From: a virus
Taxonomy: Duplodnaviria > Heunggongvirae > Uroviricota > Caudoviricetes
IMG/VR virus record: IMGVR_UViG_2713896896_000011
Location: 1-16,007 of that record
Direction: 5' to 3' (one strand)
DNA: 16,007 nucleotides
Shown in pieces: positions 1,505 through 16,007 of the stretch. The position numbers and the translations under genes were made by a program. A model generated the notes under the pieces. The model searched no databases. It saw only the letters and a program-made list of their open reading frames with translations, and had not been told where the DNA came from. The stretch's first letter is position 1. Each line of letters opens with the position of its first letter.

Positions 1505-1510
1505 TTTTAA

Positions 1511-3169: not shown

Positions 3170-3171
3170 AA

Positions 3172-3804
3172 TTACTCCGGGTAAATAGATGTAATTTCAA
3201 GGCTCCATTGCCCTGTTCCGTAAAAGATTGTTGTGTTTTGTTGTACTTCCCGTATCTGGAAAGGTAAAAGCGTCGTCAGTTCACCCCCATAAAGCGCACA
3301 GCTAATAACAGGGATAGCACTTTGGTTAATGATCCAGACGATTAATGCTTCCAGTTTTGAACGTGTGTTTTTATATTCATGAATGAGTTCAACTAACTCA
3401 TTGAAAAGGTTTTCATCCATGCCTTTATCCACCAGTTCTATGTCAACCTTAAAAAAATAAGCTTTCCCGCCATATTCAAACCATTCGGCAATAGTTCCAG
3501 GCAATGAGAGTATTTCCAGTACTCGCCGTACCGCCCAAACTGTTCCTTTATATTTATGTAACTCAATGGCTTGCTTAATTAACTCACGCTTCTCTTGTTC
3601 ATCAGTAGTAAATAACCAACCTTCCAGCCCCTGAACGTGAAATTGTTCTGCAAGGGCAGGTAATGCCGAAGCATCAACCAGGTCGACCAGATAAACCATC
3701 AACGCCGTCAGATCGAGTTGCGCAAAACGTTCGGCGGCGATATTTGCCAGAGTTGAAAAACGCTCATCGCTGGTAAGCGGCGGCGGTAGCAGCAATTTAT
3801 CCAT
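3172..3804 (-). CDS. baseplate protein, P2 gpI / Mu gp48-like (YmfQ / DUF2313-like)
   Basis: Lies between the J-like gene and the tail fibre. The ORF track starts at TTG 3819; the likely true start is ATG 3804-3802 (MDKLLLPP...) preceded by GGAG and overlapping the upstream stop by 8 nt. Family call is from size, position and sequence resemblance. Confidence 0.7.
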   Translation of the reverse strand: MDKLLLPPPLTSDERFSTLANIAAERFAQLDLTALMVYLVDLVDASALPALAEQFHVQGLEGWLFTTDEQEKRELIKQAIELHKYKGTVWAVRRVLEILSLPGTIAEWFEYGGKAYFFKVDIELVDKGMDENLFNELVELIHEYKNTRSKLEALIVWIINQSAIPVISCALYGGELTTLLPFQIREVQQNTTIFYGTGQWSLEITSIYPE

Positions 3805-4912
3805 CGCTGACTCCGGCAATCGTGACGTCTATTACAGTGCATTCCGCCCATTCATGCGCCTGCAAAATACGTTTTGTAGGCATGTTCAGCACAACGTCAT
3901 AGACGCCATCGACTTGTAACACTTTGATTATCTGGTTTGGCACAATGTCCTGCCCCAGATGTTTCTGCCGCTGTTGCGTCCAGAGGCTAATCGCTTTACG
4001 CGCCGCAGTCAGTGTTGTCTCCTGATCGGCGGTGGTAAACAGCGTTAGCTGCGCACGAATTTCATACGGCACCCTGAGAGCACATTTCGCACTTACTTTG
4101 TCAGTCAGCGGACGTTTTTTCTCTTTACTCACTTCTTGTTCAATTTGCGCGAGTAGCTCGGTTCCCGGCAGACCATTCAGGGTTAGCGGGTAGAGCTCGA
4201 CGCAGCCTTCTGGCAACCCTTCATCTGGCCCCAGTACTGCAACGTCAATAATTGACTGGCTAACCGAAAGTGTATGAAAGCGATATGCGCCATAGCTGCC
4301 GGCATTACTGAAGCTTTCTGGCGCCAGTTGTATACGCTGGCGTAGTGCATCATCGTTCTCTTCACCGCAACCGCCGGTTGTGGGAGTCAGATTAGTCACG
4401 TTGATATCGTAATAACCGATCCTGTCAACAAGGGCGCTAATCTGTGCAGGCTGCCAGCCATTGCCCTGTTCACCTGCTGCGAGGCTGGTGGCCGGAACGG
4501 CGATATGCAAACTCCTGGCCGGAAGCAGAACATCTTCATCGGTGGCGAACATCACGCTGTCAGAGGCACTGGCCCGCGTCCCCTGGGGAATCAGGATATT
4601 GCTGGTATACGCACTGACGACCGAAAACTGCAACGTCGTTTTTGCCGGTTGCGCAGGTAAACGGTGAACACCCACCAGCTCCCCTAAATAATCCAACATT
4701 GGTGCGCGGGAATACGCGACCAGGTTTTGTTTCGCCGCTTCCTGAATGGCGATGCGCACAAGGTTTTCACGATAGGCAAACAGGTCGATGAGTAACCGTT
4801 CGGCCTGTGCCGGATAGAGTTTTTTACCGCTGGCATCTTCGTATTGCGCAATCATCTCGCTGGTAATTTGCGCAGGATCGCGGTCAATAAAATCGGGTTC
4901 GGCTATCGCCAT
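3797..4912 (-). CDS. baseplate J-like protein (P2 gpJ / Mu gp47-like)
   Basis: 371 aa. Strong SD GGAGG 4-5 nt before the ATG at 4912. Overlaps the upstream gp25-like gene by 10 nt. Conserved position in the baseplate module. Confidence 0.8.
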   Translation of the reverse strand: MAIAEPDFIDRDPAQITSEMIAQYEDASGKKLYPAQAERLLIDLFAYRENLVRIAIQEAAKQNLVAYSRAPMLDYLGELVGVHRLPAQPAKTTLQFSVVSAYTSNILIPQGTRASASDSVMFATDEDVLLPARSLHIAVPATSLAAGEQGNGWQPAQISALVDRIGYYDINVTNLTPTTGGCGEENDDALRQRIQLAPESFSNAGSYGAYRFHTLSVSQSIIDVAVLGPDEGLPEGCVELYPLTLNGLPGTELLAQIEQEVSKEKKRPLTDKVSAKCALRVPYEIRAQLTLFTTADQETTLTAARKAISLWTQQRQKHLGQDIVPNQIIKVLQVDGVYDVVLNMPTKRILQAHEWAECTVIDVTIAGVSDG

Positions 4913-5262
4913 AACACCTCCGTTGAGTTGATTACGCCGTCAGCGGCGCGCCATTGCACACGTAACGTCAGATGTTCACCGTCGATTATCGGTGCTACCT
5001 TCAGCAACCGACATCGCGGTTCCCACTGGCGGATGGCTTCCACCGACTCCCGTACCACATGCGGGATTGCCCGCTCGATGGGGTAATCGATGTAGTGCCA
5101 CAAGTTGCTGCCAAACAGCGGTCTGTGGGGATCACTGCCGCGCGGCGTGCGCAGAATGATGTGTATTGCCTGGTGAATATCATCCAGTCCGCAGACGTAT
5201 TCTTCAGGCCGCTGCAAGGCGGGTTGCCAGTGCAGCGTTGAGGGGCGTGTTTTTGTGTTCAT
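4903..5262 (-). CDS. baseplate wedge protein, gpW / gp25-like (Mu gp46-like)
   Basis: 119 aa. Contains RPLFGSNLWHYIDYP, resembling the gp25/W signature. Located between the spike and the J-like gene. Confidence 0.75.
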   Translation of the reverse strand: MNTKTRPSTLHWQPALQRPEEYVCGLDDIHQAIHIILRTPRGSDPHRPLFGSNLWHYIDYPIERAIPHVVRESVEAIRQWEPRCRLLKVAPIIDGEHLTLRVQWRAADGVINSTEVLWR

Positions 5263-5325
5263 GTGCTTATTTTCGCCCTGAACGGACAGTGGGGATATTA
5301 AAGCGATTTAGAAAACTGATTGATT

Positions 5326-5355
5326 AAAAAGAGAAAACCCGCCATCAGGCGGGTT
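5326..5355 (-). terminator. intrinsic terminator-like hairpin immediately after the spike gene
   Basis: Stem aacccgcc (5336-5343) / ggcgggtt (5348-5355), loop atca. On the minus-strand RNA it is followed by UUCUCUUUUU (plus 5326-5335). Sits in the 98-bp gap between the spike and gp25-like genes. Confidence 0.55.
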
Positions 5356-5360
5356 AAAAG

Positions 5361-6020
5361 CTAGTGTGAATGGTGATTTGAGTTACCACCGCTATCCTGC
5401 AATGTGCCGCTGGCCTGAACGTTACCAATCACATTGACATTGCCAGTTATCGTGGCGGCGTTACCGATGCCTCCACTTCCTGCCATGCCACCCAGCCAGG
5501 TGAGTTTTTTCATTACCGTGACGTTACCAGTAAAGGTGCTCATGGGCGCATCTACCGTCACTGTCGCCGCTTTAATATCGACGGTATCGGAAGTCACGGT
5601 GACCTGTTGGGCTTTAACCTCAACGTTGGGTGATGTCAGGTTAGTATGGTCAATAACCTCAATCACGATTTTCTCAATACCGCCGTTAATCGTAAGCTGG
5701 TGTGTGCTGCGGTCATATTCAAACGCTGCGCCATCAGAAAACTGGACGTAACGTTTATCTCGCGAGGCCACAGGCGCGGTGTCAACCGTAGAATAAACGG
5801 CCCCAAGTACCACGCCATCTTCGCCGTTGTCGTCCAGCAGAACTTCCACCTGCTCACCCATATCCGGTAGCCAGTAGTCTTTATTGTCCTGGGAATTACG
5901 TTGAAGTACCGCAAGCCAGTTACTCTTCAGATTGTCGCACTCTGGCAGTGTGACTCGCACCCGAACGCTGGTTTCGTCAATATCGCTGATAATCCCCGTT
6001 TGCCGGGTTACTCCCTTCAT
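5361..6020 (-). CDS. baseplate central spike / assembly protein V-like (Mu gp45-like)
   Basis: 219 aa. N-terminus GIISDIDETSVRVRVTLPECDNLKSNWL resembles gpV. C-terminal repetitive beta-helix-like region (GNVTV...GNVNVIGNVQASG) ends in the His-rich tip NSNHHSH. SD GGAGG 4 nt upstream of the ATG. Confidence 0.8.
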   Translation of the reverse strand: MKGVTRQTGIISDIDETSVRVRVTLPECDNLKSNWLAVLQRNSQDNKDYWLPDMGEQVEVLLDDNGEDGVVLGAVYSTVDTAPVASRDKRYVQFSDGAAFEYDRSTHQLTINGGIEKIVIEVIDHTNLTSPNVEVKAQQVTVTSDTVDIKAATVTVDAPMSTFTGNVTVMKKLTWLGGMAGSGGIGNAATITGNVNVIGNVQASGTLQDSGGNSNHHSH

Positions 6021-6029
6021 AGTGCCTCC

Positions 6030-7070
6030 TTACTGGCTGGTTGCTGGCCCGCGCGAAACGTCGATTTCAGTGGTATAGCCGCTGCGCACAAAACTGTGAG
6101 TAGATTTATCAATCAGCCATTGTCCAGAAAGAATACCAAAATCAATGAGTTCGATTTTATTGCCTGCTGTCAGTTCCGGGCAGCCCATCATCCTGAGTGT
6201 TCCGGTTTGCTGATATTCGTTGTGGCTGTCGAGTGCAGCGTTGGCCTTTGCCTGTGCCGCGCCAACATCCGTCGCCCGGCTGTTGAGTTTCAACGTGTCG
6301 GCACTGGTGCCGACTCCACGGGCTGACGGTTTTTGCTGGCTGTCGTGAGTGTAGATAACCAGTTCTTTTTTCTTACTATTTTGATGCTGTACGGTGGCGT
6401 TCTTGTAGATGCGATTAATGGTGTCTTTGAAGGTAAAGTGCGAAACCTCTTTGCGGTCGATGGTTTTCACTGGCGCCAGGCAGCGTAGTGTCGGCAGATG
6501 TGAAAAAATCAGCTCTTTTGTCGTCACTTTCACGGCATAGCCATATTCGCTGGCCAGACGCTTGAGAAATCCAACATCGGTTTCGCCGTACTGTGTCACC
6601 CGGTCAATCGCCAGCGGCTCGATTTTGCCCACCAGCTTCAGACCGTGAGTTTGCGCGATACGACTGGCGATGGCCGAAAGCGTCGTTTCTTCAAAGCCCT
6701 GACTGTTACGGGTACGCAGCGCCTGATTGACGGAAGTGGCAATGCCATCAATATTTACCGTGGAAGGTGGTGCTGAAATATCAATTTTATCAATAATATA
6801 CTGACCGCAATTGAGGAGCGTCTCCCCCTGATAACCCATATGCAGCGCCAGCGTATCGCCTTTGCCGGGATACCACTCTTTTATCCAACGTCCATCGGTG
6901 TCATCCAGTGTAATGGCGATGGTATCTGACTCGTTTTTGATGCTGTCGTGGTAACTGATGCTGGTGACATAGGGCGTGATGTCATAAGTGATATCTTTAT
7001 GCCCATACCAAAGGGTAAAAATGGGCGCGAGTGTGGCAAAGACGCCACCAGATACGCTTATCTCAGCCAT
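6030..7070 (-). CDS. baseplate hub / tail protein, P2 gpD / Mu P (gp44)-like
   Basis: 346 aa, placed between tail protein X and the spike as in Mu and P2 tail modules. Assignment by size, order and N-terminal resemblance. Confidence 0.7.
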   Translation of the reverse strand: MAEISVSGGVFATLAPIFTLWYGHKDITYDITPYVTSISYHDSIKNESDTIAITLDDTDGRWIKEWYPGKGDTLALHMGYQGETLLNCGQYIIDKIDISAPPSTVNIDGIATSVNQALRTRNSQGFEETTLSAIASRIAQTHGLKLVGKIEPLAIDRVTQYGETDVGFLKRLASEYGYAVKVTTKELIFSHLPTLRCLAPVKTIDRKEVSHFTFKDTINRIYKNATVQHQNSKKKELVIYTHDSQQKPSARGVGTSADTLKLNSRATDVGAAQAKANAALDSHNEYQQTGTLRMMGCPELTAGNKIELIDFGILSGQWLIDKSTHSFVRSGYTTEIDVSRGPATSQ

Positions 7071-7270
7071 GGTGGTATCTCCGATAAGGTTTTGTTGACG
7101 GAAATGACCGGAATAATGAGTTGAATACCGGAAGGCAGTACCGGGTAAATGGCGACATGTGGATTGGCGGCGATGATGCGTTCATAAGCCAGCGCATCGC
7201 CGTAGTAATACCATGCCAGATTATCCCAGCGTTCGCCGTCGGTGGTGATATGTTCAAGGTATCGCATCAC
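7058..7270 (-). CDS. tail protein X-like (LysM-like small tail protein)
   Basis: 70 aa. WYYYGDALAYERIIAANPHV...IQLIIP matches the LysM-like pattern of P2 gpX-type proteins. Start overlaps the upstream stop as ATGA. Confidence 0.7.
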   Translation of the reverse strand: MMRYLEHITTDGERWDNLAWYYYGDALAYERIIAANPHVAIYPVLPSGIQLIIPVISVNKTLSEIPPWLR

Positions 7271-8220
7271 CAGCTCCTCGTAATGGTCGCGGCAGCAAGC
7301 TGGCTCACTGCGGGAGTGGTTTGTTGTACCGTTGTTCGTGCCTGCTCAACCAACGTTGCGGCTTTATCGAACGTCGCTTCGGCGATGTCGTTGGTAATGT
7401 CGTCGAAAAGCGCCTGAGCATGGTCAACCAGCGTGCTGGCGTCTTTGGCGCAGTCCCGGATACCTGGCATGTTACCCAGTAAAGCGTTAATCTGCGCCGA
7501 TAACGCTTTTGGGAGTCCTGCCAGCGTTTGCAGATCCATGGGCTGTTTAAACAGGGTTTCGATGGCGTCGATAGTCTTTTTCAACGACGTAATTATCTTT
7601 TCACACTTTTCTTTTAACGCTTTGGCCTCTTTAACCAGTGCTTTCACTTTTGCCACCGTTTTTTTAATATCTTCAATGGCTTGAGTCAGCTCATCGAGCA
7701 TCTCTTTGGCCTTACGCATACCTTCTTCAATGGCGTTCAATATCTGATCAAACCAGGACTCCACCATGTCTGGAAAATCGCTCGCCTTTTCGTCAATATT
7801 CGGGTCTTGGGTAGTAATTGCCGGGGGCAAGAGTGGATTTTTAGGATCGCCGGTGTACTCCTGGAGCGACATTGTTCCGCTTTGAGCAATCACATTGCCC
7901 CAGGGATCGGTGTGCTGGTGGGTGGCGGTTAGCTCCGTAATCACAAACCAGCCGCGATAATCGCCATTGCCAAACACCAGAGCCATCGCTTTGTGGGCAA
8001 GCATGGCTTCACGCAGTCGATTCAGCTCTGTTGTGGGTTGGCAAAACTGGCTGTGCAAGGAAAATTCCAGTGCCAGCATATCCAGCTTATCGCCAATAAA
8101 CTGCACGCCGGGTTTGCCTTCTATACGGGCATGTGTGGCGTAGTCCACGCCCATTGTGCTTTTAAAGCCGTCCCAGAATGTGACAACCTTAAATTCAATC
8201 TCTCCTAAAACGGCATACAT
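7267..8220 (-). CDS. DNA circulation-like tail protein (Mu N / gp43-like, short form)
   Basis: 317 aa, immediately downstream of the tape measure; start overlaps the tape measure stop as TGATG. Central Lys/Glu-rich coiled-coil segment. Assignment mainly by synteny. Confidence 0.6.
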   Translation of the reverse strand: MYAVLGEIEFKVVTFWDGFKSTMGVDYATHARIEGKPGVQFIGDKLDMLALEFSLHSQFCQPTTELNRLREAMLAHKAMALVFGNGDYRGWFVITELTATHQHTDPWGNVIAQSGTMSLQEYTGDPKNPLLPPAITTQDPNIDEKASDFPDMVESWFDQILNAIEEGMRKAKEMLDELTQAIEDIKKTVAKVKALVKEAKALKEKCEKIITSLKKTIDAIETLFKQPMDLQTLAGLPKALSAQINALLGNMPGIRDCAKDASTLVDHAQALFDDITNDIAEATFDKAATLVEQARTTVQQTTPAVSQLAAATITRSW

Positions 8221-10595
8221 CAGGCATACCCCCGGCGCTGTTGTTGCGCCATTACGTCGTTAATCATTCTTTCCAGTTCGCGTTTACTTATCGTCAACAC
8301 GTTCTGAATGTCTTTAGTGGTGTTTTGTCCGTTACTCTGCACGGTAATTTGTGGCGAAAAATTCACCTGAACTTTTCCAGAGGAACGGGAGGGGAGCGTC
8401 GCCGGTTTGGTTACAGATTTACCAGGTAAAGAGGCCGATGCGGGTTTGGCGGCTGTATTTTTTGCCGCTGGTGTCGATGGCGACGTTGTCGTTTTACTGG
8501 ATGGCGCGAGTTGTTTGCCCACAGGAGGCGTTAAAATCGCTCCGGCAACGCCTGGAACAACGGTCGTGGGGGAGATTGATGCGGTATTCGTCGTGCTTGT
8601 AACAGCCGTAGCCGATCCTTCTGTGCTAATACCCATCGTGGTTTTTAGCCAGTCCGGTAAGGCGTTTTTGACCTGATCAATAATGCCTTTCAGAGCGGGG
8701 AAAGCATTCATTATGCCGTCAACCAGACTGCCCAGAAGATTGCTGCCGAACTCGCTAAAACTTGCAGGCATCTCGACACCAAACCAATTCATCACACTGG
8801 AAAAGGCGCTGTAGAACAACTCCAGCGGCGACCAGTCGAGAATTAACCGGCAAATCCCTGCAATGCCGCCGTCAAAGGCCGTGGTGATACGTTGCCAGAT
8901 GGCGGAAAAGAATCTGGAGATAGGTTCCCAGTGGCGATAGATCAGATAAGCAGCGCCCGCAATCGCGGTGATGACCAGACCAATGGGATTCATCAATAAA
9001 ACTCTACCCAACCAGAAGACGGTCTGACCTGCCAGTTTCAATGCGCCAATCAGGCCACGGCCAAGCAGTTGCGTTAGCCATTTTGCGCCGTTATATAATG
9101 ACTTAACCGCTGATAGCATCTTACTTGCCGCGCCTGTGAGCGTCAGACTTGCCCTGACTTTCAGGAAGATATCGACCAGACGAATAAACGGCGAGGCGAT
9201 GACGTTCGCGCCCAGCTTTAAAACATTCAGTGCGCCGTTAAACAGCCAAATCGCTCCGACGATTTTCGCAATGTTTTGCACCAGCGCCGGGTGTTCACGT
9301 AGCCAGGCGCTGAACTGGCGAATCACCGGAGTAAGGCTTTGCGCCAACTCGCCAATCAGCGGCATTAATTGCAAGCCAATGCTGAGCCATAAATCATTTA
9401 ACGCCAGTTGTAACGTTTTAGTTTGTTCAATGGGTGAGGCCATCTGCACAGAAAAATCGTTGTCAATCAGATTCTTACCGCTGTCTTGCATGGCGGAGGC
9501 TTTTAACTGGCGATACTCTTCCATATTCGCCAGCACAGGTGCCAGGAATTCCACTGTTTGCGCATCGCCGAACATTTCGCCCAGATTAAATTGCGTCACC
9601 ATCGATTGCAGTGCGTTGCTGCGAGCAGATAAATCTTCAATTTGCATGGTGCGTTTGAAGGTGTCGAGGATCGCCGGATTCATCTTCTCAAGTTGCGTTT
9701 GCACGATATGAATCATGGCTTCGCTAACACCCATGCCGTTTTGCTGATGTTCAAGCAGAGAGCCTTGCAGATCGACGCCCTGGCTGACGAACCAGTTATC
9801 GGTTTTTTTCGAAAAGATGGTTTGCAGAAAGTGGTCGAAATTCTCCGCCGCCACACTGGCGCTGGCACCATTTTTCATTGCGATCTGCATTGTGGCGGTC
9901 AGTTCAGCCATACCTTCTAAACCCTGTGCGCCAGTTTTAACTGCAAATTTGTCTATCCACTGTGTTTGCCCGGCAACGGTAGGCCCACCGTTTTTGCTAA
10001 TGCCGTACATCATGTTTTGCGCGGCGTGGAAATTTTCTGGCGCAATATTCAGTCGATCATGAGTCGCGAGCGCGGCATTCGCCCATGTTTCAGCACTTTC
10101 GCGCGTGGTGGTGGCCGCTTTGGCGATCTCCGGCATATAACGGTTGAGATCCTGCATCGACGACAAATTACCTTCGATTAGCACCTGGGCTGCGTTCTGT
10201 AAGGTGGTCTGCTGCTGGTTAAAATCCATGCTCCAGTCGCGCAGATTAAGGCTGAGTGTCTCGCGGGTTGTATCATTCATCCCACCTTTGGTCGCCAAAT
10301 TGACCATGTTGTCCTGAAACTCATACGGCAACTTCCAGTCAGGGATTTCAACATTGAATACTTTGCTAAATTGCCCGGCAAATGTTTGGGTTTTCTCCAT
10401 CAGATCAGCGCGGTTTCGGCTATTTTCCTCCAGGCGGAGAGCGGAATCGGCAAGTTGCTGCGTTAGTTTGATTACTGTCGCTTGCTGAGAAGAGAGTGCT
10501 AACAATGTTCTGGCGTTGAGTGAGCCGTAACGGGCTATTGCCTGCGTCAACGTCTCATTACGCGCCTGAAGCTGGGTAATAATATCGTTGGCCAA
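8220..10595 (-). CDS. tail tape measure protein
   Basis: 791 aa with internal hydrophobic segments and a Ser/Thr/Pro-rich C-terminal tract, located between chaperone and baseplate genes. Apparent start is TTG at 10595-10593 with AAGAG upstream; there is no in-frame ATG between the upstream stop (10634-10632) and the TTG. Confidence 0.85.
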   Translation of the reverse strand: MANDIITQLQARNETLTQAIARYGSLNARTLLALSSQQATVIKLTQQLADSALRLEENSRNRADLMEKTQTFAGQFSKVFNVEIPDWKLPYEFQDNMVNLATKGGMNDTTRETLSLNLRDWSMDFNQQQTTLQNAAQVLIEGNLSSMQDLNRYMPEIAKAATTTRESAETWANAALATHDRLNIAPENFHAAQNMMYGISKNGGPTVAGQTQWIDKFAVKTGAQGLEGMAELTATMQIAMKNGASASVAAENFDHFLQTIFSKKTDNWFVSQGVDLQGSLLEHQQNGMGVSEAMIHIVQTQLEKMNPAILDTFKRTMQIEDLSARSNALQSMVTQFNLGEMFGDAQTVEFLAPVLANMEEYRQLKASAMQDSGKNLIDNDFSVQMASPIEQTKTLQLALNDLWLSIGLQLMPLIGELAQSLTPVIRQFSAWLREHPALVQNIAKIVGAIWLFNGALNVLKLGANVIASPFIRLVDIFLKVRASLTLTGAASKMLSAVKSLYNGAKWLTQLLGRGLIGALKLAGQTVFWLGRVLLMNPIGLVITAIAGAAYLIYRHWEPISRFFSAIWQRITTAFDGGIAGICRLILDWSPLELFYSAFSSVMNWFGVEMPASFSEFGSNLLGSLVDGIMNAFPALKGIIDQVKNALPDWLKTTMGISTEGSATAVTSTTNTASISPTTVVPGVAGAILTPPVGKQLAPSSKTTTSPSTPAAKNTAAKPASASLPGKSVTKPATLPSRSSGKVQVNFSPQITVQSNGQNTTKDIQNVLTISKRELERMINDVMAQQQRRGYA

Positions 10596-10684
10596 AATTG
10601 TTTCTCTTATAGATTGGTGATGGCCCGCTGGTTAGTTTTCTGAAAAATGGGCTGGGAAGAAATAAACCTGGCGGGCTTTGAAGA

Positions 10685-10709
10685 ACTCGCAGACATCAGG
10701 TCTGCGAGT
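10685..10709. other. 10-bp perfect stem-loop in the chaperone-tape measure spacer
   Basis: actcgcagac (10685-10694) / gtctgcgagt (10700-10709), 5-nt loop. The loop contains the stop codon (10698-10696) of the +1-frame extension ORF. No adjacent U-tract on either strand. Confidence 0.5.
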
Positions 10710-10846
10710 CATATTCGATTTTTATTTGAGCGCTGGCTTCATCCAGCCAGTGACTAAAGTCATCTATCGTGAGCGCGTCAATCTCACTGGGTGGAAAGCG
10801 AAACCATCTCGCCAGTAGCGCCATTGCCTGCCATAGCAGGGGGGGA
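10696..10846 (-). other. candidate programmed-frameshift extension of the tail assembly chaperone
   Basis: A C7 run on the coding strand (plus 10839-10845) lies inside the chaperone gene. The +1 frame stays open from there to TGA at 10698-10696, 88 nt beyond the 0-frame stop; the -1 frame ends at 10766-10764. Chaperone-tape measure pairs with frameshift products are a conserved feature of tailed phages. Confidence 0.3.
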
Positions 10847-11101
10847 TTCTGTAGCCACGGTAAGCATGGATTGAAATCGTTTCTGCAACGCCTGGTAATC
10901 CAGCAAATCCATTTCAGCTAAATCTTCTGGTACCAGCCCGGTCATCGCTGCCATTAGCGGTTCATCCCATTCTTCCGGCTTTTCGCTGACCCGGCGTGCA
11001 TTACGCATATCTTTGACTTTCAGGCGACGTAATTGTAGCGTGTCGATATTATTTCCTGCTGCCGACGTAAAGGGAAACTGTAAGATATAATGCTCTTTCA
11101 T
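10784..11101 (-). CDS. tail assembly chaperone (Mu gp41 / P2 gpE-like)
   Basis: 105-aa acidic protein directly upstream of the tape measure, with SD AAGGA before the ATG at 11101. Conserved position. Confidence 0.7.
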   Translation of the reverse strand: MKEHYILQFPFTSAAGNNIDTLQLRRLKVKDMRNARRVSEKPEEWDEPLMAAMTGLVPEDLAEMDLLDYQALQKRFQSMLTVATESPPAMAGNGATGEMVSLSTQ

Positions 11102-11127
11102 TTTGTATCCTTATTTATTTTGCGGAG

Positions 11128-11147
11128 TTCGGGGCCGTAGCCCCGAA
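11128..11147. other. stable stem-loop between tube and chaperone genes
   Basis: ttcggggc (11128-11135) / gccccgaa (11140-11147), loop cgta, 4 nt after the tube stop. No U-tract follows on the minus-strand RNA, so it is not a canonical terminator. Confidence 0.5.
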
Positions 11148-11151
11148 TAAC

Positions 11152-11676
11152 TTAGCCACCGATGTTATTGCGATAGGTACTTAATTGATCCACGCCGTTA
11201 ACGCGGAAAATATTCGCCATATAATCCAGTTCAAGCAGCGTTTCACCATCGACTACTTGTTTAATATAAGTGCAGCCAAAGGCGCTGCTGAATTCCGGGT
11301 TTTCATTCTGTTTAAATGTGCCCAGTGGATTTTTTTTAAACATCACGGTTAAATGTGTGACTAACGCTAATTGATTCGCTTTCCCCTGAGAGTTATAACA
11401 ATCAATACTGGAGCGACACTGTAATGCTACAGCCTGCCACGGGTTTGCCGTTTTACGCATTACGTCCTGGTAAAAGGAGTTCCATTTAATTTCCCCCTCC
11501 AGTTTATCGAAACCAGCCGGGAGTTCTATTTTACCCACCATGCCCAGTGCTTTATGTTCCTGCATAATTAAACTGACATCTGGCAATTTAATTTCTGTTG
11601 CACGGCCTAAAAGATTATTACCATCGAGATAAATATTGGCGTTGGTAATACGGTTAATTTGAATTTTTCCAGCCAT
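11152..11676 (-). CDS. tail tube protein (Mu M / P2 FII-like)
   Basis: 174 aa, immediately after the sheath gene (TAATG overlap), in the conserved sheath-tube order of contractile tails. Confidence 0.8.
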   Translation of the reverse strand: MAGKIQINRITNANIYLDGNNLLGRATEIKLPDVSLIMQEHKALGMVGKIELPAGFDKLEGEIKWNSFYQDVMRKTANPWQAVALQCRSSIDCYNSQGKANQLALVTHLTVMFKKNPLGTFKQNENPEFSSAFGCTYIKQVVDGETLLELDYMANIFRVNGVDQLSTYRNNIGG

Positions 11677-13097
11677 TAGCGATTGCTCTCCAGAGAGACT
11701 AAATATTCAGAGGTAATTTCAGTTTCAAACGTCAGACGTTCCAGCGGCGGCGGTGGGGTAAATTTATAGCTGAGCAATAAATGCCCGGCACTGAGTTCAG
11801 CCGGTGAATTTCGCGCCGGATCGTACCAGCACTCAAAGCCAAGCAGTGCGCCGTCGGCAATCAGTTTTCGGCCCCAGGTATTTACCGATTCGGTCAGCGC
11901 GTCAATCAGTGCCTGATTGATCGGCATATCAATATACTGCTGACTGAAATAACGGATTGACTCATTAATTACATCGCCTGTCCGGCGAACGTTTTCAAAG
12001 TTACGCATATGAGTCACGGTTGGCCATGCCGCTGTGCGGTTGCCCCACAGGCGCAGACCAGAACCATAACTATTGAAAATAGTGGTAATACCGTTTTCGT
12101 TGAGCTGATTCACTTCGCTTTGTGGATCATCAATCATTGCGGAAAGCGAACGTTCGATACCGGTAATACCCTGAATTTCCTGGTTTGAGTTGCTCCACCA
12201 GAAACCTTTTTCGAGGTCTACTTTGGCACGTAGCCCGGCAGCGCGCGAAGAGAGAGGTTCAAGAATTTCCTGGTTAGTGATGCCATCGTAAACTTTGACG
12301 TGTGGGTAGCATAAACGTGCACGATCAGAGCTGGTATTGAAGTTGATTGCGCCTTGCGAACCGCGTCCAGCCAATACCTGCTGGAATGTAGTCCCAATTG
12401 GGGCATCAATGTAGGTAATCGCACCGAGTTTTTCCGCTTGTGCAATCAGCTCGGTAGTCACTGATTTTTGCGTACAAAAAACGGGTGCCAGCAGAATTTT
12501 GGCGTAGAAACCATACAAGTTATAAGTGTCCTGAAGGAGCCTCATCCCCGTGCGATCGCCTGCGGTATTAACGGCCCCGATAATATCGGCTGCGGTGACC
12601 TTTGTAGGGTCAACATAGGTATAAGTCGCGTAAACCTTTGCTCCTGCCGCAATTTCAGTTCCTGTACGGGTAATAACGCCGTCAGCGGCATTAACGCTGT
12701 ATGATGTATTTTTGTATGTAGTGGAACTGATACTTGCTCTTAGCGTTACCGAACTTACCCCCGGATGAGTTAATTTAGCTTTATCGTCACTATTGAACGT
12801 AATGGTTTCATTGGTAATGTGTAGTCCATGTTTTACTGGATCCAGCACATTAATTACCACCACTGTACCGGCACCGTGATCATAAATCGCCTTCAGCGCC
12901 TGCGGGATCGTAAAGTTAGCCTGAGTCGATCCAAACTGTGCCGCGTCACTTTCAGAAAGGCACAGCGTCGGTTGGTTTACCGGGCCACAGGGAGCGGTAC
13001 CGATTAAAGCGATTACAGCAGATTTTACTGCTTTTACCGGACGCGGGCCGGTTTCAATTTCAATGGTTTCTACACCGTGCAGATAATTAGCTGCCAT
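11676..13097 (-). CDS. contractile tail sheath protein (Mu L / P2 FI-like)
   Basis: About 473 aa. The ORF track starts at TTG 13103; the more likely start is ATG 13097-13095 (MAANYLHG...) preceded by GAGGAA. Size and position are typical of sheath proteins. Confidence 0.85.
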   Translation of the reverse strand: MAANYLHGVETIEIETGPRPVKAVKSAVIALIGTAPCGPVNQPTLCLSESDAAQFGSTQANFTIPQALKAIYDHGAGTVVVINVLDPVKHGLHITNETITFNSDDKAKLTHPGVSSVTLRASISSTTYKNTSYSVNAADGVITRTGTEIAAGAKVYATYTYVDPTKVTAADIIGAVNTAGDRTGMRLLQDTYNLYGFYAKILLAPVFCTQKSVTTELIAQAEKLGAITYIDAPIGTTFQQVLAGRGSQGAINFNTSSDRARLCYPHVKVYDGITNQEILEPLSSRAAGLRAKVDLEKGFWWSNSNQEIQGITGIERSLSAMIDDPQSEVNQLNENGITTIFNSYGSGLRLWGNRTAAWPTVTHMRNFENVRRTGDVINESIRYFSQQYIDMPINQALIDALTESVNTWGRKLIADGALLGFECWYDPARNSPAELSAGHLLLSYKFTPPPPLERLTFETEITSEYLVSLESNR

Positions 13098-13284
13098 GTA
13101 CAATTTCCTCTACGTTATTTTGTTCTTCCTGGGGAATGATGAGAATCAAGTGATTTCGGGCAATCATGGTCATAACCCACTCATTGTCTTCTGGCAGATC
13201 AATTTCACTGTTCGGCCATAATAAGATTTCTTGACCGTCGGCAAGGGTGACGCCGCTTGCCGGACCGTTGTAGATATATTTCAT
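13087..13284 (-). CDS. small conserved protein upstream of the sheath (Mu gp38 / DUF2635-like)
   Basis: 65 aa. Start overlaps the upstream stop as ATGA; overlaps the sheath start. Assignment by position and size only. Confidence 0.5.
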   Translation of the reverse strand: MKYIYNGPASGVTLADGQEILLWPNSEIDLPEDNEWVMTMIARNHLILIIPQEEQNNVEEIVHGS

Positions 13285-13736
13285 TCAGTTTCCTCGTAAT
13301 TAACTTCAGTAAGCAGGGGAAGATCCGTGCTGTCCTGTTCAGCGATAAACAGCGAGCTGGTCGCCATTTCCAGGATGTAGCGGCAGAAACCGTCGCTCTC
13401 ACCCGTATTAATTTCTTTTTCAAGCCAAATAAGATGATCGCAATCAGGAGGCTGAAGGCCTCCCAATGCGCTGCGTATGTGATCAAGTGCGTTTAACGCA
13501 TCACAATTTTTGCCAACAATAACGGTGGCGGTTAAGCGGAGTATTTGCTGTTGTACAATGGCATCACTACTTTCGGGCGTGGTGAAGACAGAACCGCTAT
13601 AATTAATAATCACCGTAATCTGTTGTGTCTGTGGAATATATTTTGGGGCATCCGTAGATGAAATGAATATGTCCATTTCAGGATGCCGATCACGTAATCT
13701 GACCACGACATAATTCATTACAGATAAAACTTTCAT
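13281..13736 (-). CDS. tail terminator / tail completion protein (Mu gp37 / K-like)
   Basis: 151 aa, first gene of the structural module after the terminator hairpin, with SD AAGG upstream of the ATG at 13736. Sits where Mu-like genomes encode gp37 before the sheath. Confidence 0.5.
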   Translation of the reverse strand: MKVLSVMNYVVVRLRDRHPEMDIFISSTDAPKYIPQTQQITVIINYSGSVFTTPESSDAIVQQQILRLTATVIVGKNCDALNALDHIRSALGGLQPPDCDHLIWLEKEINTGESDGFCRYILEMATSSLFIAEQDSTDLPLLTEVNYEETE

Positions 13737-13842
13737 ATGAGGTTTACCTTATTACCGCTCACTTCGTTATCGTTGAAATGTATTCTGAAGCAGTGAGAGT
13801 GAAGAATCTTTTAATGTGATTTAGAGAAAAAATTGAATGGTT

Positions 13843-13877
13843 ATAAAAAATCCCCACACTTACGTAAAGGTGGGGAT
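13843..13877 (-). terminator. rho-independent terminator separating the lysis cassette from the tail structural genes
   Basis: Near-palindromic 28-bp hairpin (13850-13877; arms atccccac / gtggggat) 5 nt after the stop of gene 13882-14196. On the minus-strand RNA it is followed by UUUUUUAU (plus 13843-13850). Confidence 0.65.
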
Positions 13878-13881
13878 GTAT

Positions 13882-14196
13882 TTAATAACTGCCACGTTGT
13901 AATAACTCTATTTTGCTATATAAGGCATCCAGCTTTGCTTCTAATACTGCTTGTCCACGAAGATAATCCTCTCTGCGGACATAATACAGTGGAAGTTCGG
14001 CACGAAATTCGAGAAATTCTCTTTCCAGTTTCGACCAGCTTGTTTCTGATTCCCTGCGGGCATTTTCCAGGGACTCAAAACGCTCATTAAGTCTTTTTTC
14101 AATTTGCGCTAACAGCAATTTTCCGGCAGCAAACATTAATCCAACGAATGAAAGCATAAAGGAGATCACTTCCCAAAAATCGATACTGAGTTTCAT
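13882..14196 (-). CDS. membrane-anchored coiled-coil lysis accessory protein (i-spanin-like or releasin-like)
   Basis: 104 aa. N-terminal hydrophobic segment (WEVISFMLSFVGLMFAAGKLLL) followed by a charged coiled-coil region. SD GAGGGG 4 nt before the ATG. Immediately downstream of the lytic enzyme. Confidence 0.5.
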   Translation of the reverse strand: MKLSIDFWEVISFMLSFVGLMFAAGKLLLAQIEKRLNERFESLENARRESETSWSKLEREFLEFRAELPLYYVRREDYLRGQAVLEAKLDALYSKIELLQRGSY

Positions 14197-14208
14197 CGGC
14201 CCCTCTGA

Positions 14209-14814
14209 TTAGTGAAGACAGCTTGCCTGTCCCCAGAGTAAGTAGCGGGCGGCGTGTTGATAGAGAATCATCTTCGGATAGTGACGATTTTCTCGCCAGT
14301 TTGCGGCGCTGCGCCCGGCGTTGACTTGCTCAACATGACCAAACCAGATGGCGGCATTTAACCCTTTTGTTGTCGCCAGTTTTTTATCCCGGTTAATCCA
14401 ACCCTGACCACCGTTATAGGCGCTTAGAGTAAACGCCATACGTTGACAATCATTTTTTGCAGAGATGTTGTTCCATAAATGCTGGTCGTACTGTACCAAC
14501 GCCCGGATTGCCCAGGTTGGGTTATACGGTTTGTTTTCATGTAGCTGTGGATACAGTTGGCTTATCCATGTCGCTGTGGCAGGCATAAATTGCGCCATAC
14601 CTTGTGCGCCAACGGGGGAACGTACCATTGGCTGCCAGGCGGACTCCTGGTGTAATTGCCCGGCAAAGTCAGCCACCGGAGCGTTCAGTCCCCAGACTTC
14701 TCGGGCGGTACGAATCAATTCATTTCTCCATGCCAGAGAGGCTTGTGGTGGTTCAGACGCGTTAAGCGGGAAAAGAACGAAAATAATCATAGGCGCGATA
14801 TATTTTAGCCACAT
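14209..14814 (-). CDS. lytic transglycosylase-type endolysin (SLT domain) with N-terminal signal or signal-anchor
   Basis: SLT-like motifs (QLHQESAWQP with the catalytic Glu context, GAQGMAQFMPATA, AYNGG). The likely start is ATG 14814-14812 (MWLKYIAPMIIFVLFPLNA...), abutting the holin-like stop in TAGTGATG. The ORF track's longer start at 14913 overlaps the upstream gene and is probably not used. Confidence 0.75.
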   Translation of the reverse strand: MWLKYIAPMIIFVLFPLNASEPPQASLAWRNELIRTAREVWGLNAPVADFAGQLHQESAWQPMVRSPVGAQGMAQFMPATATWISQLYPQLHENKPYNPTWAIRALVQYDQHLWNNISAKNDCQRMAFTLSAYNGGQGWINRDKKLATTKGLNAAIWFGHVEQVNAGRSAANWRENRHYPKMILYQHAARYLLWGQASCLH

Positions 14815-14816
14815 CA

Positions 14817-15104
14817 CTATAGCCCTAACGCGACGGAAAGGCAGACTGCAGCCACGATGATGGCGCGACGAATCATTGCCGCTGCGTAGCAACGCGGTTC
14901 CTTTCTGGGGCAAAAAAAGTCAGGCCGTGCCCAGGGGAACAAACTACGATCGAGCCAGTATCCCAGCACTGCAGAAAGTGAAACCAGGCTTAGTTTATAA
15001 ATGACGACCGGAATTTGTGCTGAAGATGTCCAGCCGATTAATGCGATCAGAGCAATGGCTGCAGCCAGCCAACCGGAAAGACGGGGAAAAGTGATTTTTC
15101 TCAT
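14817..15104 (-). CDS. holin-like small membrane protein, first gene of the leftward operon
   Basis: 95 aa with two or three hydrophobic segments. Strong SD AGGAGA (15116-15111) 6 nt before the ATG at 15104. Directly upstream of the lytic transglycosylase. Confidence 0.55.
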   Translation of the reverse strand: MRKITFPRLSGWLAAAIALIALIGWTSSAQIPVVIYKLSLVSLSAVLGYWLDRSLFPWARPDFFCPRKEPRCYAAAMIRRAIIVAAVCLSVALGL

Positions 15105-15659
15105 ACGATATCTCCTGATAAGTGAGATACCAGTGTCTGCTTATCTCTTTGCTGAAGAATGAAAAAAGCTTTAATAAATAACTTTAAAAAATGTGTTCTC
15201 TTCGAATTAACATGTTCGCCAATTAATCTCCCAACTCAAAATAGAGAACTAAGGATAAAATGGCTGCTAGTTAGATAAATCCTGCGTTATGTGTAATGAA
15301 GGGGATGACATATTGCAATCATGGTCATTACTTATTTGATTTTTAAAGTTTGTTTAAAAAAATCCTCGACTGTGAGGGAAACGAGCTTTTTGAAAAGTAG
15401 GCGATAAAAATGATAAATAGCACTGTATATGTATACAGTATCGTGTAAAATGGCACTCCTGTTGATAAGACATGTAATGAAAATAATATATTTGTTTTGT
15501 GAATTTATAATTCGTTTTAATTTTTATTGCATATACATTGTGATTATTTATTTGCGTGTTGAATGTATTGAAAAGCAGTAATTGCACCAACTTAGCGGAT
15601 ATCCGTGGTGTAACTCACATCAGAGTCCATACAGGGTGCAAGATATATGGAGATGAAAA
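15105..15659. promoter_or_regulatory. AT-rich divergent control region between the lysis/tail operon and the Mor-like gene
   Basis: About 555 bp at roughly 28% GC, flanked by divergently oriented start codons with good Shine-Dalgarno sequences on each side. Contains the LexA-like box and several dyad symmetries. Confidence 0.6.
15421..15440. promoter_or_regulatory. LexA (SOS) box
   Basis: CACTGTATATGTATACAGTA matches the E. coli LexA consensus TACTGTATATATATACAGTA at 18 of 20 positions, with intact CTGT-N8-ACAG (15423-15438). A TTGAAA -35-like hexamer at 15390-15395 and AT-rich -10-like sequence TGATAAAT (15411-15418) lie just upstream on the plus strand. Confidence 0.7.
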
Positions 15660-16007
15660 ATGATACAAAAAGCAAAAGAGATGACCCGGACACCGGAGAT
15701 CATTAACGATTTGGCGTTTCATGCTTCGCAAGTTCTGATTGAGAGCATCAATCTGGATAGCTCATCTGCGGAAAATGTTGGCTATGCCATTGCCGATCGC
15801 ATGATGCGAAACTGGGGCGGACAAAGCATTTATTTTCCAAAAGGAATCGCCAGGCGTGCCTCGGAGCGGGACTATCAAATCTATAGCGAGTGCGATGGGC
15901 GCAACTACGCCGAATTAGCGAAGAAATATAATCTGACGCTGCAATGGATTTATAAGATAGTAAAACGCGTGCATACAGAAAAGCAGCAACAGCGCCGTAT
16001 GCAGTAG
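15660..16007 (+). CDS. Mor/C-family transcriptional activator (Mu middle/late activator-like)
   Basis: 115 aa. C-terminal region GGQSIYFPKG...RDYQIYSECDGRNYAELAKKYNLTLQWIYKIVKR aligns by eye with Mu Mor (GGQVYIPRG...RIWNDFNGRNVSELTTRYGVTFNTVYKAIRR). SD GGAGA 6 nt before the ATG. The stop codon is the last triplet of the window. Confidence 0.7.
   Translation: MIQKAKEMTRTPEIINDLAFHASQVLIESINLDSSSAENVGYAIADRMMRNWGGQSIYFPKGIARRASERDYQIYSECDGRNYAELAKKYNLTLQWIYKIVKRVHTEKQQQRRMQ

What the first reader, a model, noticed from the sequence alone, without database searches (positions are those of the whole stretch)
10696..10846. Possible programmed frameshift at a C7 tract in the tail assembly chaperone
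Chaperone-tape measure pairs normally produce a frameshifted longer chaperone isoform. Here a C7 run sits in the 3' part of the chaperone gene. The +1 frame is open from the run to 10696, which would replace the last 17 residues with about 50 alternative ones, while the -1 frame closes sooner (10766-10764). A +1 shift at a CCC-C site would be less common than the usual -1 heptamer, so the direction is unresolved. Phase variation by slipped-strand mispairing at the homopolymer is an alternative.
Basis: partly seen in the sequence, partly recalled or inferred. Interest (0 to 1): 0.5.

Follow-up and report, generated by a model that had tools for sequence, protein, structure and literature searches.

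The report
Tail-chaperone frameshift; C7 run incidental
The phage-tail chaperone gene here almost certainly makes a longer second protein by a programmed +1 ribosomal slip, but the conserved slip site is a UUU_C motif 31 bases upstream of the C7 run, which is a strain-specific coincidence.

Summary
The sequence facts are right. There is a C7 run at 10845-10839 (minus strand). The +1 frame is open to the TGA at 10698-10696, and the -1 frame closes at 10766-10764.

The gene is a P2 gpE-type tail assembly chaperone lying between the tube and tape-measure genes. The +1 ORF encodes a domain homologous to P2 E'. It is conserved, under purifying selection and has no start codon of its own in more than 80 related loci. 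A programmed shift into the +1 frame is therefore well supported.

The C7 run is not the conserved site:
- One such run is expected by chance in this window.
- Close relatives carry TCCTCCCCT, TCCGCCACT or CCCACAGCA at that position, with no change in length. These changes are synonymous in the +1 frame.
- In several relatives frame 0 stops upstream of the C7-equivalent position.

Every +1-type locus examined (84 of 84, about 11 divergent lineages, including high-GC hosts) has TTT followed by C at the Phe that ends the chaperone domain. Here that is CGA_UUU_CAA at 10879-10871.

This points to P-site +1 slippage of tRNA-Phe, as in influenza PA-X. It differs from P2 (-1 at T_TTT_TTG) and Mu (-2 at CGG_GGG_CGA). 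Nothing supports phase variation. There is no experimental proof.

The parts
11152..11676 (-). Tail tube gene (P2 FII type), immediately upstream of the chaperone
   Evidence: PF04985 Phage_tube, E = 3.7e-56.
10784..11101 (-). Tail assembly chaperone gene, gpE type, 105 aa in frame 0. The conserved domain ends at Phe76; the C-terminal tail is variable.
   Evidence: PF10109 Phage_TAC_7, E = 2e-19, residues 6-80. Frame-0 purifying selection extends to nt 229-240 only.
10871..10879 (-). Proposed programmed +1 shift cassette CGA_UUU_CAA: E-site CGA 10879-10877, P-site UUU 10876-10874, then C at 10873.
   Evidence: TTT followed by C at this Phe in 84 of 84 non-redundant +1-type loci. The preceding Arg codon is CGA in 76 of 78, against 16 of 355 elsewhere in E. 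Stop codons in relatives bracket the shift to -8..+24 nt around the TTT.
10839..10845 (-). The C7 run (frame 0 UCC_CCC_CCU; +1 frame AAU_CCC_CCC_CUG), in the unconstrained linker. Incidental, though it may be a minor secondary slip site.
   Evidence: One match against 1.05 expected. Not conserved in relatives. The variants are synonymous in the +1 frame. CCC-C is a known error-prone +1 motif (PMC4519876).
10696..10872 (-). +1-frame part of the predicted E+E' product (58 codons plus the TGA stop). The conserved E' domain LWQAMALLARWFRFPPSEID..WLDEA..QIK runs from about 10836 to 10699. Predicted E+E' = join(11101..10874, 10872..10696), 134 aa.
   Evidence: PF06528 Phage_P2_GpE at 17.5-19.4 bits, below the cut-off of 23. 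hhalign against P2 E': probability 88%, E = 2.9e-6. Purifying selection in the +1 frame from nt 257/266 onward, upstream of any ATG.
10684..10710 (-). Stable hairpin whose loop holds the E' stop codon, between E' and the tape-measure gene
   Evidence: -21.9 kcal/mol, z = -4.5. The stem is kept through compensatory changes in relatives. Function not determined.
8220..10595 (-). Tape measure gene, 791 aa
   Evidence: PF10145, E = 1.3e-11. Annotated as tape measure in E. coli homologues.

Best explanation
The gene at 11101..10784 is a P2 gpE-type tail assembly chaperone. Most ribosomes read frame 0 to the TGA at 10786-10784 and make the 105-aa gpE-like protein. A minority shift +1 and make a 134-aa E+E' fusion that ends at the TGA at 10698-10696.

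By analogy with lambda G/GT and P2 E/E+E', the shared N-terminal domain binds the tape measure protein and the E' domain recruits the tube protein.

The shift is proposed to occur at CGA_UUU_C (10879-10873). Peptidyl-tRNA-Phe (anticodon GAA) in the P site re-pairs from UUU to the better-matched UUC, and decoding resumes at AAU. The rare CGA codon then sits in the E site, with a weak I:A wobble pair, and is proposed to favour the slip.

The C7 run lies 31 nt downstream in an unconstrained linker. It arose by point substitutions that are silent in the +1 frame and is not part of the conserved signal. At most it adds low-level, unprogrammed tRNA-Pro slippage in this strain.

Shown: gene identity, the frame of E', homology of E', conservation and selection patterns, and the bracketing of the shift window by stop codons. 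Inferred: that the shift is ribosomal, that it occurs at UUU_C, the role of CGA, and the protein functions.
For: Context and identity. The gene order is sheath, tube, chaperone, tape measure, U, X, D. The chaperone matches PF10109 at 2e-19.

The +1 ORF.
- It matches P2 E' (PF06528 at 19.4 bits; hhalign probability 88%, E = 2.9e-6).
- It is open and conserved in +1 phase in all 36 close loci and in 81 of 82 non-redundant loci of a wider set; the exception, L181, is an in-frame fusion.
- The wider set includes BcepMu, KP12, PhiKM and Ralstonia and Pseudomonas phages.

Selection. Per-codon analysis of 29 unique sequences shows that frame 0 has synonymous-only variation up to Gln77 and only amino-acid-changing variation afterwards. 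The +1 frame has synonymous-only variation from L-W-Q-A onward, which is upstream of the only ATG.

Shift window. The +1 frame opens only 8 nt before the TTT in 6 loci. Frame 0 stops 24-30 nt after it in L186, L127, L136, L179, L187 and L041. That is before the C7-equivalent position at +31..+37.

The site.
- TTT followed by C occurs at this Phe in 81 of 81 and 84 of 84 loci.
- It holds across 9 clusters at 60% amino-acid identity, plus Komp_PAO1_1 (GTG TTT CGG) and L190/L191 (ACT TTT CGG), which that script did not capture. Several lineages come from 59-66% GC loci where TTC predominates.
- Elsewhere in E, TTT accounts for 55 of 126 Phe codons.
- The preceding Arg codon is CGA in 76 of 78 loci, against 16 of 355 elsewhere in E.

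Mechanistic precedent.
- UUU_C P-site +1 slippage was proven by mass spectrometry for influenza PA-X, UCC_UUU_CGU (PMC3498833). BcepMu has UCC_UUU_CGC.
- UUU_Ynn is described as especially prone to +1 shifting in bacteria (PMC5009743).
- Tail chaperones are known to use -1, -2 or +1 shifts in different phages (PMC5009743). Mu's -2 site is annotated in AF083977.
Against: - There is no experimental evidence for this family: no junction peptide and no reporter assay.
- No stimulatory element was found beyond the codon context. Alifold gives about 0 kcal/mol for a consensus structure, there is no Shine-Dalgarno-like motif, and there is no Rfam hit. The efficiency is therefore unknown.
- Phe is also a conserved residue of the E domain, and Gln, Arg (CGN) and Leu (CTN) codons all start with C. 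Part of the TTT_C conservation could therefore reflect protein constraint.
- The loci are not phylogenetically independent; there are about 11 lineages.
- In the window itself the selection pattern alone cannot separate a shift at UUU_C from one at the C7. Both lie at the edges of the same unconstrained linker.
- The PF06528 match is below Pfam's gathering score.
Confidence: 0.7

Rival explanations
1. The C7 run is the programmed shift site. Either tRNA-Pro slips +1 on CCC_C, or it slips -2 on C_CCC_CCC as at the G-run of Mu.
For: The run is in the right part of the gene and the +1 frame is open across it. CCC-C is a documented +1-prone motif, up to about 1% in E. coli (PMC4519876). Mu uses a homopolymer (CGG_GGG_CGA) for its -2 shift. 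The run sits at the 3' edge of the linker between the two constrained regions.
Against: The run is found only in this window, with C6TT in two near-identical contigs. All other relatives keep the +1 ORF without any run. In L127 and L136, frame 0 ends 4 nt upstream of the C7-equivalent position. Variants at the run are synonymous in the +1 frame and change the amino acid in frame 0. One C7 is expected by chance.
Confidence: 0.06
2. There are two sites in this strain. UUU_C is the programmed site, and the C7 run adds unprogrammed slippage that changes the E:E+E' ratio. It could move frame-0 ribosomes into +1. It could also move ribosomes already in +1 into the dead-end -1 frame at AAU_CCC_CCC_C.
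For: CCC_C motifs occur in both frames at the run. Such motifs are known to be slippery. Both shifts would give products with intact E and E' domains that differ only in a roughly 10-residue unconstrained linker.
Against: No data on efficiency. m1G37 and EF-P normally keep such slippage at or below 1%. The run is absent from relatives, so any effect is not selected for.
Confidence: 0.3
3. The homopolymer is a phase-variation (contingency) tract. Slipped-strand mispairing would switch the gene between an E-only form and a fused E-E' form.
For: Loss of one C would fuse E and E' in frame. Two such fused proteins exist in public data: P0001 (C6 to C5) and P0002 (C4 to C3).
Against: Both fused proteins are rare, against clusters of 78-289 members for the normal 105-aa allele. 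They come from assemblies in which neighbouring sheath, tube and tape-measure genes are also broken. In L195 all three indels relative to L045 lie in homopolymers, which is the signature of sequencing error. Seven bases is short for a contingency tract. Lambda needs both products in a balanced ratio (PMC5009743).
Confidence: 0.03
4. E' is made as a separate small protein from the internal ATG at 10824, as PGAP annotates in some E. coli genomes ('GpE family phage tail protein', 42 aa), with no frameshift.
For: PGAP annotation in E. coli Z226-1. An ATG with a weak AGG upstream is present in this subfamily.
Against: Purifying selection in the +1 frame extends upstream of that ATG, across L-W-Q-A and the preceding Pro. 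Other lineages have no start codon at or near that position: KP12, Ralstonia-like loci, L186, BcepMu. In P2 the homologous E' is made only as the E+E' fusion (GenBank AF063097 annotation; PMC3091744).
Confidence: 0.07
5. RNA polymerase slips on the C7/G7 tract, producing a fraction of mRNAs with one C fewer that encode the fusion directly.
For: A homopolymer is present, and loss of one C gives the in-frame fusion.
Against: The tract is not conserved, yet relatives still need E+E'. By general knowledge, known bacterial slippage tracts are mostly A/T runs of 9 or more.
Confidence: 0.03

Closest known systems
Bacteriophage P2 gpE / gpE+E' (-1 frameshift at T_TTT_TTG in the FETUD tail operon)
   Same: Same gene position (tube, E, T, U, D). 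The same chaperone family (PF10109) and a homologous E' extension. The shift site lies within a few residues of the end of the chaperone domain. The result is two proteins sharing an N-terminus.
   Different: Here E' is in the +1 frame, not -1. There is no T7 heptamer. The proposed site is a UUU_C tetranucleotide with single-tRNA P-site slippage instead of tandem -1 slippage.
Phage Mu gp41 / Mu_56 (verified -2 frameshift at CGG_GGG_CGA)
   Same: Both use the PF10109 chaperone family. The extension is in the same frame (-2 is equivalent to +1). A rare CGA codon is part of the site context in both.
   Different: Mu slips back 2 nt on a G-run with CGA in the A site. This family has no conserved homopolymer run, and CGA precedes the slip codon. 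Mu's extension shows no evident similarity to this E' (read by eye from the translation, not tested).
Influenza A virus PA-X +1 frameshift (UCC_UUU_CGU)
   Same: The same proposed slippery tetranucleotide UUU_C, with tRNA-Phe re-pairing to UUC. Flanking E- and A-site codons are conserved. No RNA structure is needed and efficiency is low (PMC3498833). BcepMu has UCC_UUU_CGC.
   Different: PA-X is eukaryotic and viral and the gene is unrelated. Here the usual E-site codon is CGA and the A-site codon is CAA, CAG, CUG or CGN. The case is unproven experimentally.
BcepMu-type (Bcepmuvirus) tail modules and their tail-only derivatives
   Same: These are the closest phage relatives of the chaperone and E' (PhiKM, KP12, BcepMu, phiE255). 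The layout is the same, with E' in +1 and TTT_C.
   Different: The window and its E. coli counterpart carry only tail and lysis genes plus a Mor-type activator, with no head or transposition genes. GenBank annotates BcepMu gp42/gp43 differently from the E to E' model.

Membership tests
Frameshift-extended tail assembly chaperone pair (lambda G/GT, P2 E/E+E', Mu gp41) | Located between the major tail/tube gene and the tape measure gene | tested here: met
   Tube 11676..11152, chaperone 11101..10784, tape measure 10595..8220.
Frameshift-extended tail assembly chaperone pair (lambda G/GT, P2 E/E+E', Mu gp41) | The upstream ORF belongs to a tail-assembly-chaperone family | tested here: met
   PF10109 Phage_TAC_7, 69.8 bits against a cut-off of 25.
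Frameshift-extended tail assembly chaperone pair (lambda G/GT, P2 E/E+E', Mu gp41) | An overlapping ORF in another frame that extends past the stop, is conserved as protein, and has no conserved start codon of its own | tested here: met
   The +1 ORF is conserved in 81 of 82 loci. Selection in the +1 frame extends upstream of the ATG. hhalign against P2 E' gives E = 2.9e-6. Caveat: PF06528 scores 17.5-19.4 bits, below its gathering score of 23.
Frameshift-extended tail assembly chaperone pair (lambda G/GT, P2 E/E+E', Mu gp41) | A conserved slippery sequence within the overlap | tested here: met
UUU_C is conserved in 84 of 84 loci.
Frameshift-extended tail assembly chaperone pair (lambda G/GT, P2 E/E+E', Mu gp41) | Two proteins with a common N-terminus made in a fixed ratio, both needed for tail assembly | not testable with these tools
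   Needs protein analysis and genetics.
P2-type -1 frameshift (X_XXY_YYZ heptamer, E' in the -1 frame) | The extension lies in the -1 frame behind a tandem-slippage heptamer | tested here: not met
   The -1 frame closes at 10766-10764 and has no homology. E' is in +1. Only the Pasteurella phage AFS-2018a relative uses -1, at A_AAG_GGA.
Mu-type -2 frameshift on a homopolymer run | A conserved run that allows P-site re-pairing 2 nt upstream | tested here: not met
   Only this window has a run (C7). Relatives have none in the bracketed interval.
UUU_C P-site +1 frameshift cassette (PA-X type) | UUU in frame 0 followed by C, conserved at synonymous sites, at the 5' end of the +1 ORF | tested here: met
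UUU_C P-site +1 frameshift cassette (PA-X type) | A junction peptide showing Phe followed by +1-frame residues, and loss of the shift on changing UUU to UUC | not testable with these tools
   Experimental test required.
Phase-variable homopolymeric tract (contingency locus) | Tract-length polymorphism among close relatives or within populations that switches expression | tested here: not met
   No length variants in IMG/VR, metagenome or genome loci. The only fused variants are in indel-ridden assemblies.

The most novel reading that the evidence does not exclude
P2-E-type tail chaperones of BcepMu-like phages and of enterobacterial tail-only elements share a compact, structure-independent bacterial +1 frameshift cassette (usually CGA_UUU_CAR). 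It is mechanistically equivalent to influenza PA-X, with the rare I:A-decoded CGA codon acting as an E-site stimulator. Within one homologous gene family the same regulatory outcome would then have been re-solved three ways: -1 in P2, -2 in Mu, +1 here. The E' ORF is currently annotated in public genomes as a stand-alone gene or not at all.
Probability: 0.55. Interest if true: 0.55.

Novelty: new variant of a known kind. Interest (0 to 1): 0.42.

Why it matters
- Tail-chaperone frameshifting is a textbook case of recoding, but most documented sites are -1 heptamers. A conserved UUU_C +1 site in a widespread family would add a simple, testable prokaryotic example of the PA-X-type cassette. The family spans phages and prophage-like or tail-only viral contigs, with named hosts including Escherichia, Salmonella, Klebsiella, Burkholderia, Ralstonia and Pseudomonas.
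- It would give a natural system for testing E-site (CGA) effects on +1 slippage.
- It would correct genome annotation. PGAP either omits E' or calls it a separate 42-aa protein.
- For the finding as written, the lesson is cautionary: a conspicuous homopolymer in the right place is not the signal.

Tried and rejected
- **Downstream RNA stimulator.** RNAalifold on 61 unique sequences gave essentially no consensus structure, about -1.5 to 0 kcal/mol. A local CCAUGC-UUA-GCGUGG hairpin exists only in part of the enterobacterial subfamily.
- **Shine-Dalgarno-like stimulator upstream.** No conserved stimulator is visible in the alignments.
- **Rfam.** No hit at gathering thresholds in the window. 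Only a chance snoRNA match (E = 0.47) near the site.
- **NCBIfam.** No model matched E, E' or the fusion.
- **Eight-lineage E' alignment.** It was too divergent for the search for related loci. A four-sequence alignment worked.
- **Metagenome scan with a 16-mer through the C-run.** It returned 67 loci, of which 66 were chance matches. Only L109 was a true homologue, and it has C6TT.
- **-1 frame product.** Short, unconserved and without homology.
- **Independent initiation of E'.** Rejected because selection extends upstream of the ATG and other lineages have no start codon.
- **Phase variation.** Rejected after tracing the fused variants to error-prone assemblies.
- **Primary papers.** Xu et al. 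2004 and Christie et al. 2002 are not in the held library. I could not check whether they already list a +1 or UUU_C site for this subfamily.

Full report
**Observation.** The genes of the window run on the minus strand. The ORF at 11101..10784 (105 aa) contains CCCCCCC at 10845-10839, read in frame 0 as GAA TCC CCC CCT.

- Frame 0 ends at the TGA at 10786-10784.
- The +1 frame is open from 10917 to the TGA at 10698-10696.
- The -1 frame ends at the TAG at 10766-10764.

The run is the only C/G homopolymer of 6 or more in the window. One such run is what dinucleotide shuffles predict: 1 observed against 1.05 expected, with 114 of 200 shuffles having at least one.

**What the genes are.** Pfam assigns the following.

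| Coordinates (minus strand) | Assignment | Pfam match |
|---|---|---|
| 13103..11676 | Tail sheath | PF04984 / PF17482 |
| 11676..11152 | P2 FII tail tube | PF04985, 3.7e-56 |
| 11101..10784 | Tail assembly chaperone 'E, or 41 or 14' | PF10109, 2e-19 |
| 10595..8220 | Tape measure | PF10145 |
| 8220..7267 | gpU | PF06995 |
| 7070..6030 | gpD | PF05954 |

The rest of the window holds baseplate, tail fibre and lysis genes. The +1-frame ORF gives a sub-threshold match to PF06528, 'Phage P2 GpE', which models the E' part (19.4 bits against a cut-off of 23). A profile of four E' lineages aligns to P2 E' with hhalign probability 88% and E = 2.9e-6. BLASTP of the two predicted fusions gives E = 8e-4 over the same segment.

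This is a P2 E/E+E'-type pair. In P2 the extension is reached by a -1 shift at TTTTTTG (GenBank annotation; PMC3091744). In Mu it is reached by a verified -2 shift (annotation of AF083977), at CGG_GGG_CGA. The review by Atkins et al. states that tailed phages use -1, -2 or +1 for this purpose (PMC5009743).

**The +1 ORF is real.** I collected 36 close loci from E. coli, Salmonella, other Enterobacteriaceae and IMG/VR. In every one the +1 frame is open and encodes ...LWQAMALLARWFRFPPSEID..WL.EA..QIK.., while the -1 frame is short and variable.

A per-codon count of codon types against amino-acid types in 29 unique sequences shows the following.

- Frame 0 has synonymous-only variation up to Gln77 (...DYQALQKRFQ). 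After that, nearly every variable codon changes the amino acid.
- The +1 frame shows the reverse. It has no synonymous-only codons upstream, and a continuous run of them from nt 266 (L, W, Q, A, M, A, L, L, A, .., W, F) onward. Pro at nt 257 is also nearly fixed, through five different codons.
- Selection in +1 therefore begins upstream of the only ATG (10824). This argues against PGAP's occasional annotation of a free-standing 42-aa 'GpE family' protein.

More distant relatives have the same layout with E' in +1: PhiKM, KP12, Phi06, BcepMu, a Ralstonia phage and two Pseudomonas phages. One Pasteurella phage has E' in -1, behind A_AAG_GGA.

**The C7 run is not the conserved site.**

- At the aligned position the closest relatives read TCCCCCCTT, TCCTCCCCT, TCCTCCCCA, TCCGCCACT, CCCACAGCA and so on, always with the same length.
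- In the +1 frame these variants are CCC CCC CTG, CCC CCC TTG, CCT CCC CTG and CCG CCA CTG, all encoding Pro-Pro-Leu. In frame 0 they change the amino acid: SPP, SPL, SSP, SAT. Ribosomes making the selected product are therefore already in +1 at the run.
- Exact-pattern scans of IMG/VR and of the metagenome collection found only C6TT relatives (L045, L109). They found no C7 and no length variants.
- Stop codons in relatives bracket the shift. The +1 frame opens only 8 nt upstream of the Phe76 codon in six loci (L040, L180, L182-L185). Frame 0 terminates 24-30 nt downstream of it in L186, L127, L136, L179, L187 and L041.
- L127 and L136 belong to the window's own subfamily, with identical spacing. 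Their TAA aligns with the window's GAA at 10849-10847, immediately 5' of the run.
- If the site is positionally conserved, it lies within about -8 to +24 nt of the TTT. The C7 run is at +31 to +37.

**The conserved candidate is UUU_C.** Within that interval the only motif allowing P-site re-pairing in +1 is TTT followed by C. In the window this is CGA TTT CAA (10879-10871).

- Among non-redundant +1-type loci, 81 of 81 and 84 of 84 with a slightly different filter have TTT followed by C at this Phe.
- The A-site codon is CAG, CAA, CTG, CTT, CGG, CGT or CGC.
- The loci fall into 9 clusters at 60% amino-acid identity. Komp_PAO1_1 (GTG TTT CGG) and L190/L191 (ACT TTT CGG) add two more lineages. 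Several lineages come from loci of 59-66% GC, where TTC predominates.
- Elsewhere in the same E domains Phe is TTT in only 55 of 126 cases.
- The preceding Arg codon is CGA in 76 of 78 loci, against 16 of 355 Arg codons elsewhere in E. CGA is rare in E. coli (3.8 per 1000; table in PMC3498833).

In all these phages the shift site lies 0-8 residues after the last conserved helix of the chaperone domain, whatever the direction: P2 -1, Mu -2, Pasteurella -1, this family +1.

**Mechanism (inferred).** tRNA-Phe has the anticodon GAA, which pairs better with UUC than with UUU. [quoted passage not shown]

- Firth et al. proved exactly this by mass spectrometry for influenza PA-X at UCC_UUU_CGU. They noted effects of the E-site and A-site codons, and they predicted a wider class of UUU_C cassettes (PMC3498833). 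BcepMu carries UCC_UUU_CGC.
- Weak E-site pairing is reported to favour +1 shifting at the RF2 site (discussed). CGA, read through an I:A wobble, would fit that role. This last step is my inference.
- I found no conserved RNA structure, no Rfam family and no Shine-Dalgarno-like element. The efficiency is probably low, which suffices for this system: lambda makes G and GT at about 30:1, and Mu's shift is about 2.2% efficient.

The predicted product is join(11101..10874, 10872..10696), 134 aa: ...LQKRF-NPCLPWLQNPPLLWQAMALLARWF...

**What the C7 may still do.** CC[C/U]-[C/U] is a known error-prone +1 motif, reaching up to about 1% in wild-type E. coli in the most sensitive context (PMC4519876). 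The run offers CCC_C in frame 0 (UCC_CCC_CCU) and also in the +1 frame (AAU_CCC_CCC_CUG).

In this strain it could therefore move a few frame-0 ribosomes into +1. That product would differ from the UUU_C product only in the unconstrained 10-residue linker. It could also knock some +1 ribosomes into the dead-end -1 frame. This is plausible, but it is untested and not selected for.

**Phase variation.** Searching the protein collection with the predicted fusion found the normal 105-aa allele in large clusters (78-289 members). It also found a few rare in-frame fusions.

- Two fusions correspond to loss of one C at this tract: P0001 (...TESPLLWQAM, C6 to C5) and P0002 (...TESSLLWQAM, C4 to C3).
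- Their contigs have broken sheath, tube and tape-measure genes.
- L195, which encodes P0001, is 99.6% identical to the window. Its three indels relative to L045 all lie in homopolymers (A7, C6, A7). This is the signature of long-read homopolymer error, not of biological switching.
- P0002 recurs in three assemblies and could be a real degenerate allele. Those elements also carry broken genes.

I find no support for a contingency locus.

**Comparison and novelty.** The kind of system, a frameshift-extended tail assembly chaperone, is well known, and so is the existence of -1, -2 and +1 versions.

The new elements are, within what I could search:

- the direction (+1) in a P2-E-type family;
- the specific conserved UUU_C site with its CGA context.

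No paper in the held library links UUU_C to tail assembly genes. GenBank annotates BcepMu gp42/gp43 differently. PGAP either omits E' or calls it a separate gene. I rate this a new variant of a known kind, of moderate interest. The C7 hypothesis itself is ordinary and mostly wrong.

**Verdict.**

| Claim | Confidence |
|---|---|
| The observation as described | Confirmed |
| A programmed shift into the +1 frame exists | About 0.85-0.9 |
| The shift occurs at CGA_UUU_C (10879-10873) | About 0.7 |
| The C7 is the programmed site | About 0.06 |
| Phase variation | About 0.03 |

Noticed in passing
window 1-16007; L199 (E. coli ws5-3, NZ_CP110511.1 2675986-2704587): The window looks like a tail-only element of about 16 kb. 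In E. coli the homologous cluster sits between lysC and yjbD/rluF. It holds a Mor-family activator, holin, lytic transglycosylase, a membrane protein, a Gp37-family protein, then sheath through tail fibre and fibre-assembly genes. It has no head, packaging, integrase or transposase genes. It occurs in 195 of 5426 complete E. coli genomes, and IMG/VR relatives are 13-18 kb contigs. Salmonella homologues are STM4212/STM4213. This suggests a BcepMu-derived R-type tailocin or a domesticated tail cluster.
   Followed up: partly
window 10684-10710 (minus strand): A stable hairpin (11-bp stem, -21.9 kcal/mol, z = -4.5) has the E' stop codon in its loop, just before the 100-nt gap to the tape-measure gene. 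The stem is kept by compensatory changes in relatives (CAGAC/GUCUG to CAGGC/GCCUG). More distant relatives have other hairpins downstream of E'. It was not called a terminator by the consensus scan. Its function is unknown; it could be an attenuator, a stability element or a coupling element.
   Followed up: partly
L181 (IMGVR_UViG_3300002920_000058) vs L186; P0003, P0004, P0005, P0023, P0042: One metagenomic relative (L181) has E and E' fused in frame by a net 1-nt difference in the linker relative to L186, downstream of its TTT_C. Several singleton proteins in the big collection are in-frame deletion fusions of E and E'. Whether these are real alleles or assembly errors is not known.
   Followed up: partly
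L002 937-1065 (E. coli Z226-1); L038 666-1171 (BcepMu): Annotation is inconsistent across public records. PGAP calls the E' ORF a separate 42-aa 'GpE family phage tail protein' in some genomes and omits it in others. BcepMu's GenBank record treats the E' ORF (gp42) as the lambda G analogue that slips into a further ORF (gp43), not as an E to E' extension. BcepMu does have an extra ORF between E' and the tape measure.
   Followed up: no
window 11330-11337 (A8 on the minus strand, inside the tube gene): The longest homopolymer in the window is an A8 run in the tube gene (..ATG TTT AAA AAA AAT CCA..). It is one of the three places where the error-prone assembly L195 has a 1-nt deletion. I did not examine it for slippage.
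   Followed up: no
Mu (L037 1459-1467) and window 10877-10879: The rare Arg codon CGA is part of the shift context both in Mu (A-site codon of CGG_GGG_CGA, -2) and in this family (codon preceding UUU_C, +1). This may be coincidence or a shared use of the weak I:A-decoded codon.
   Followed up: no
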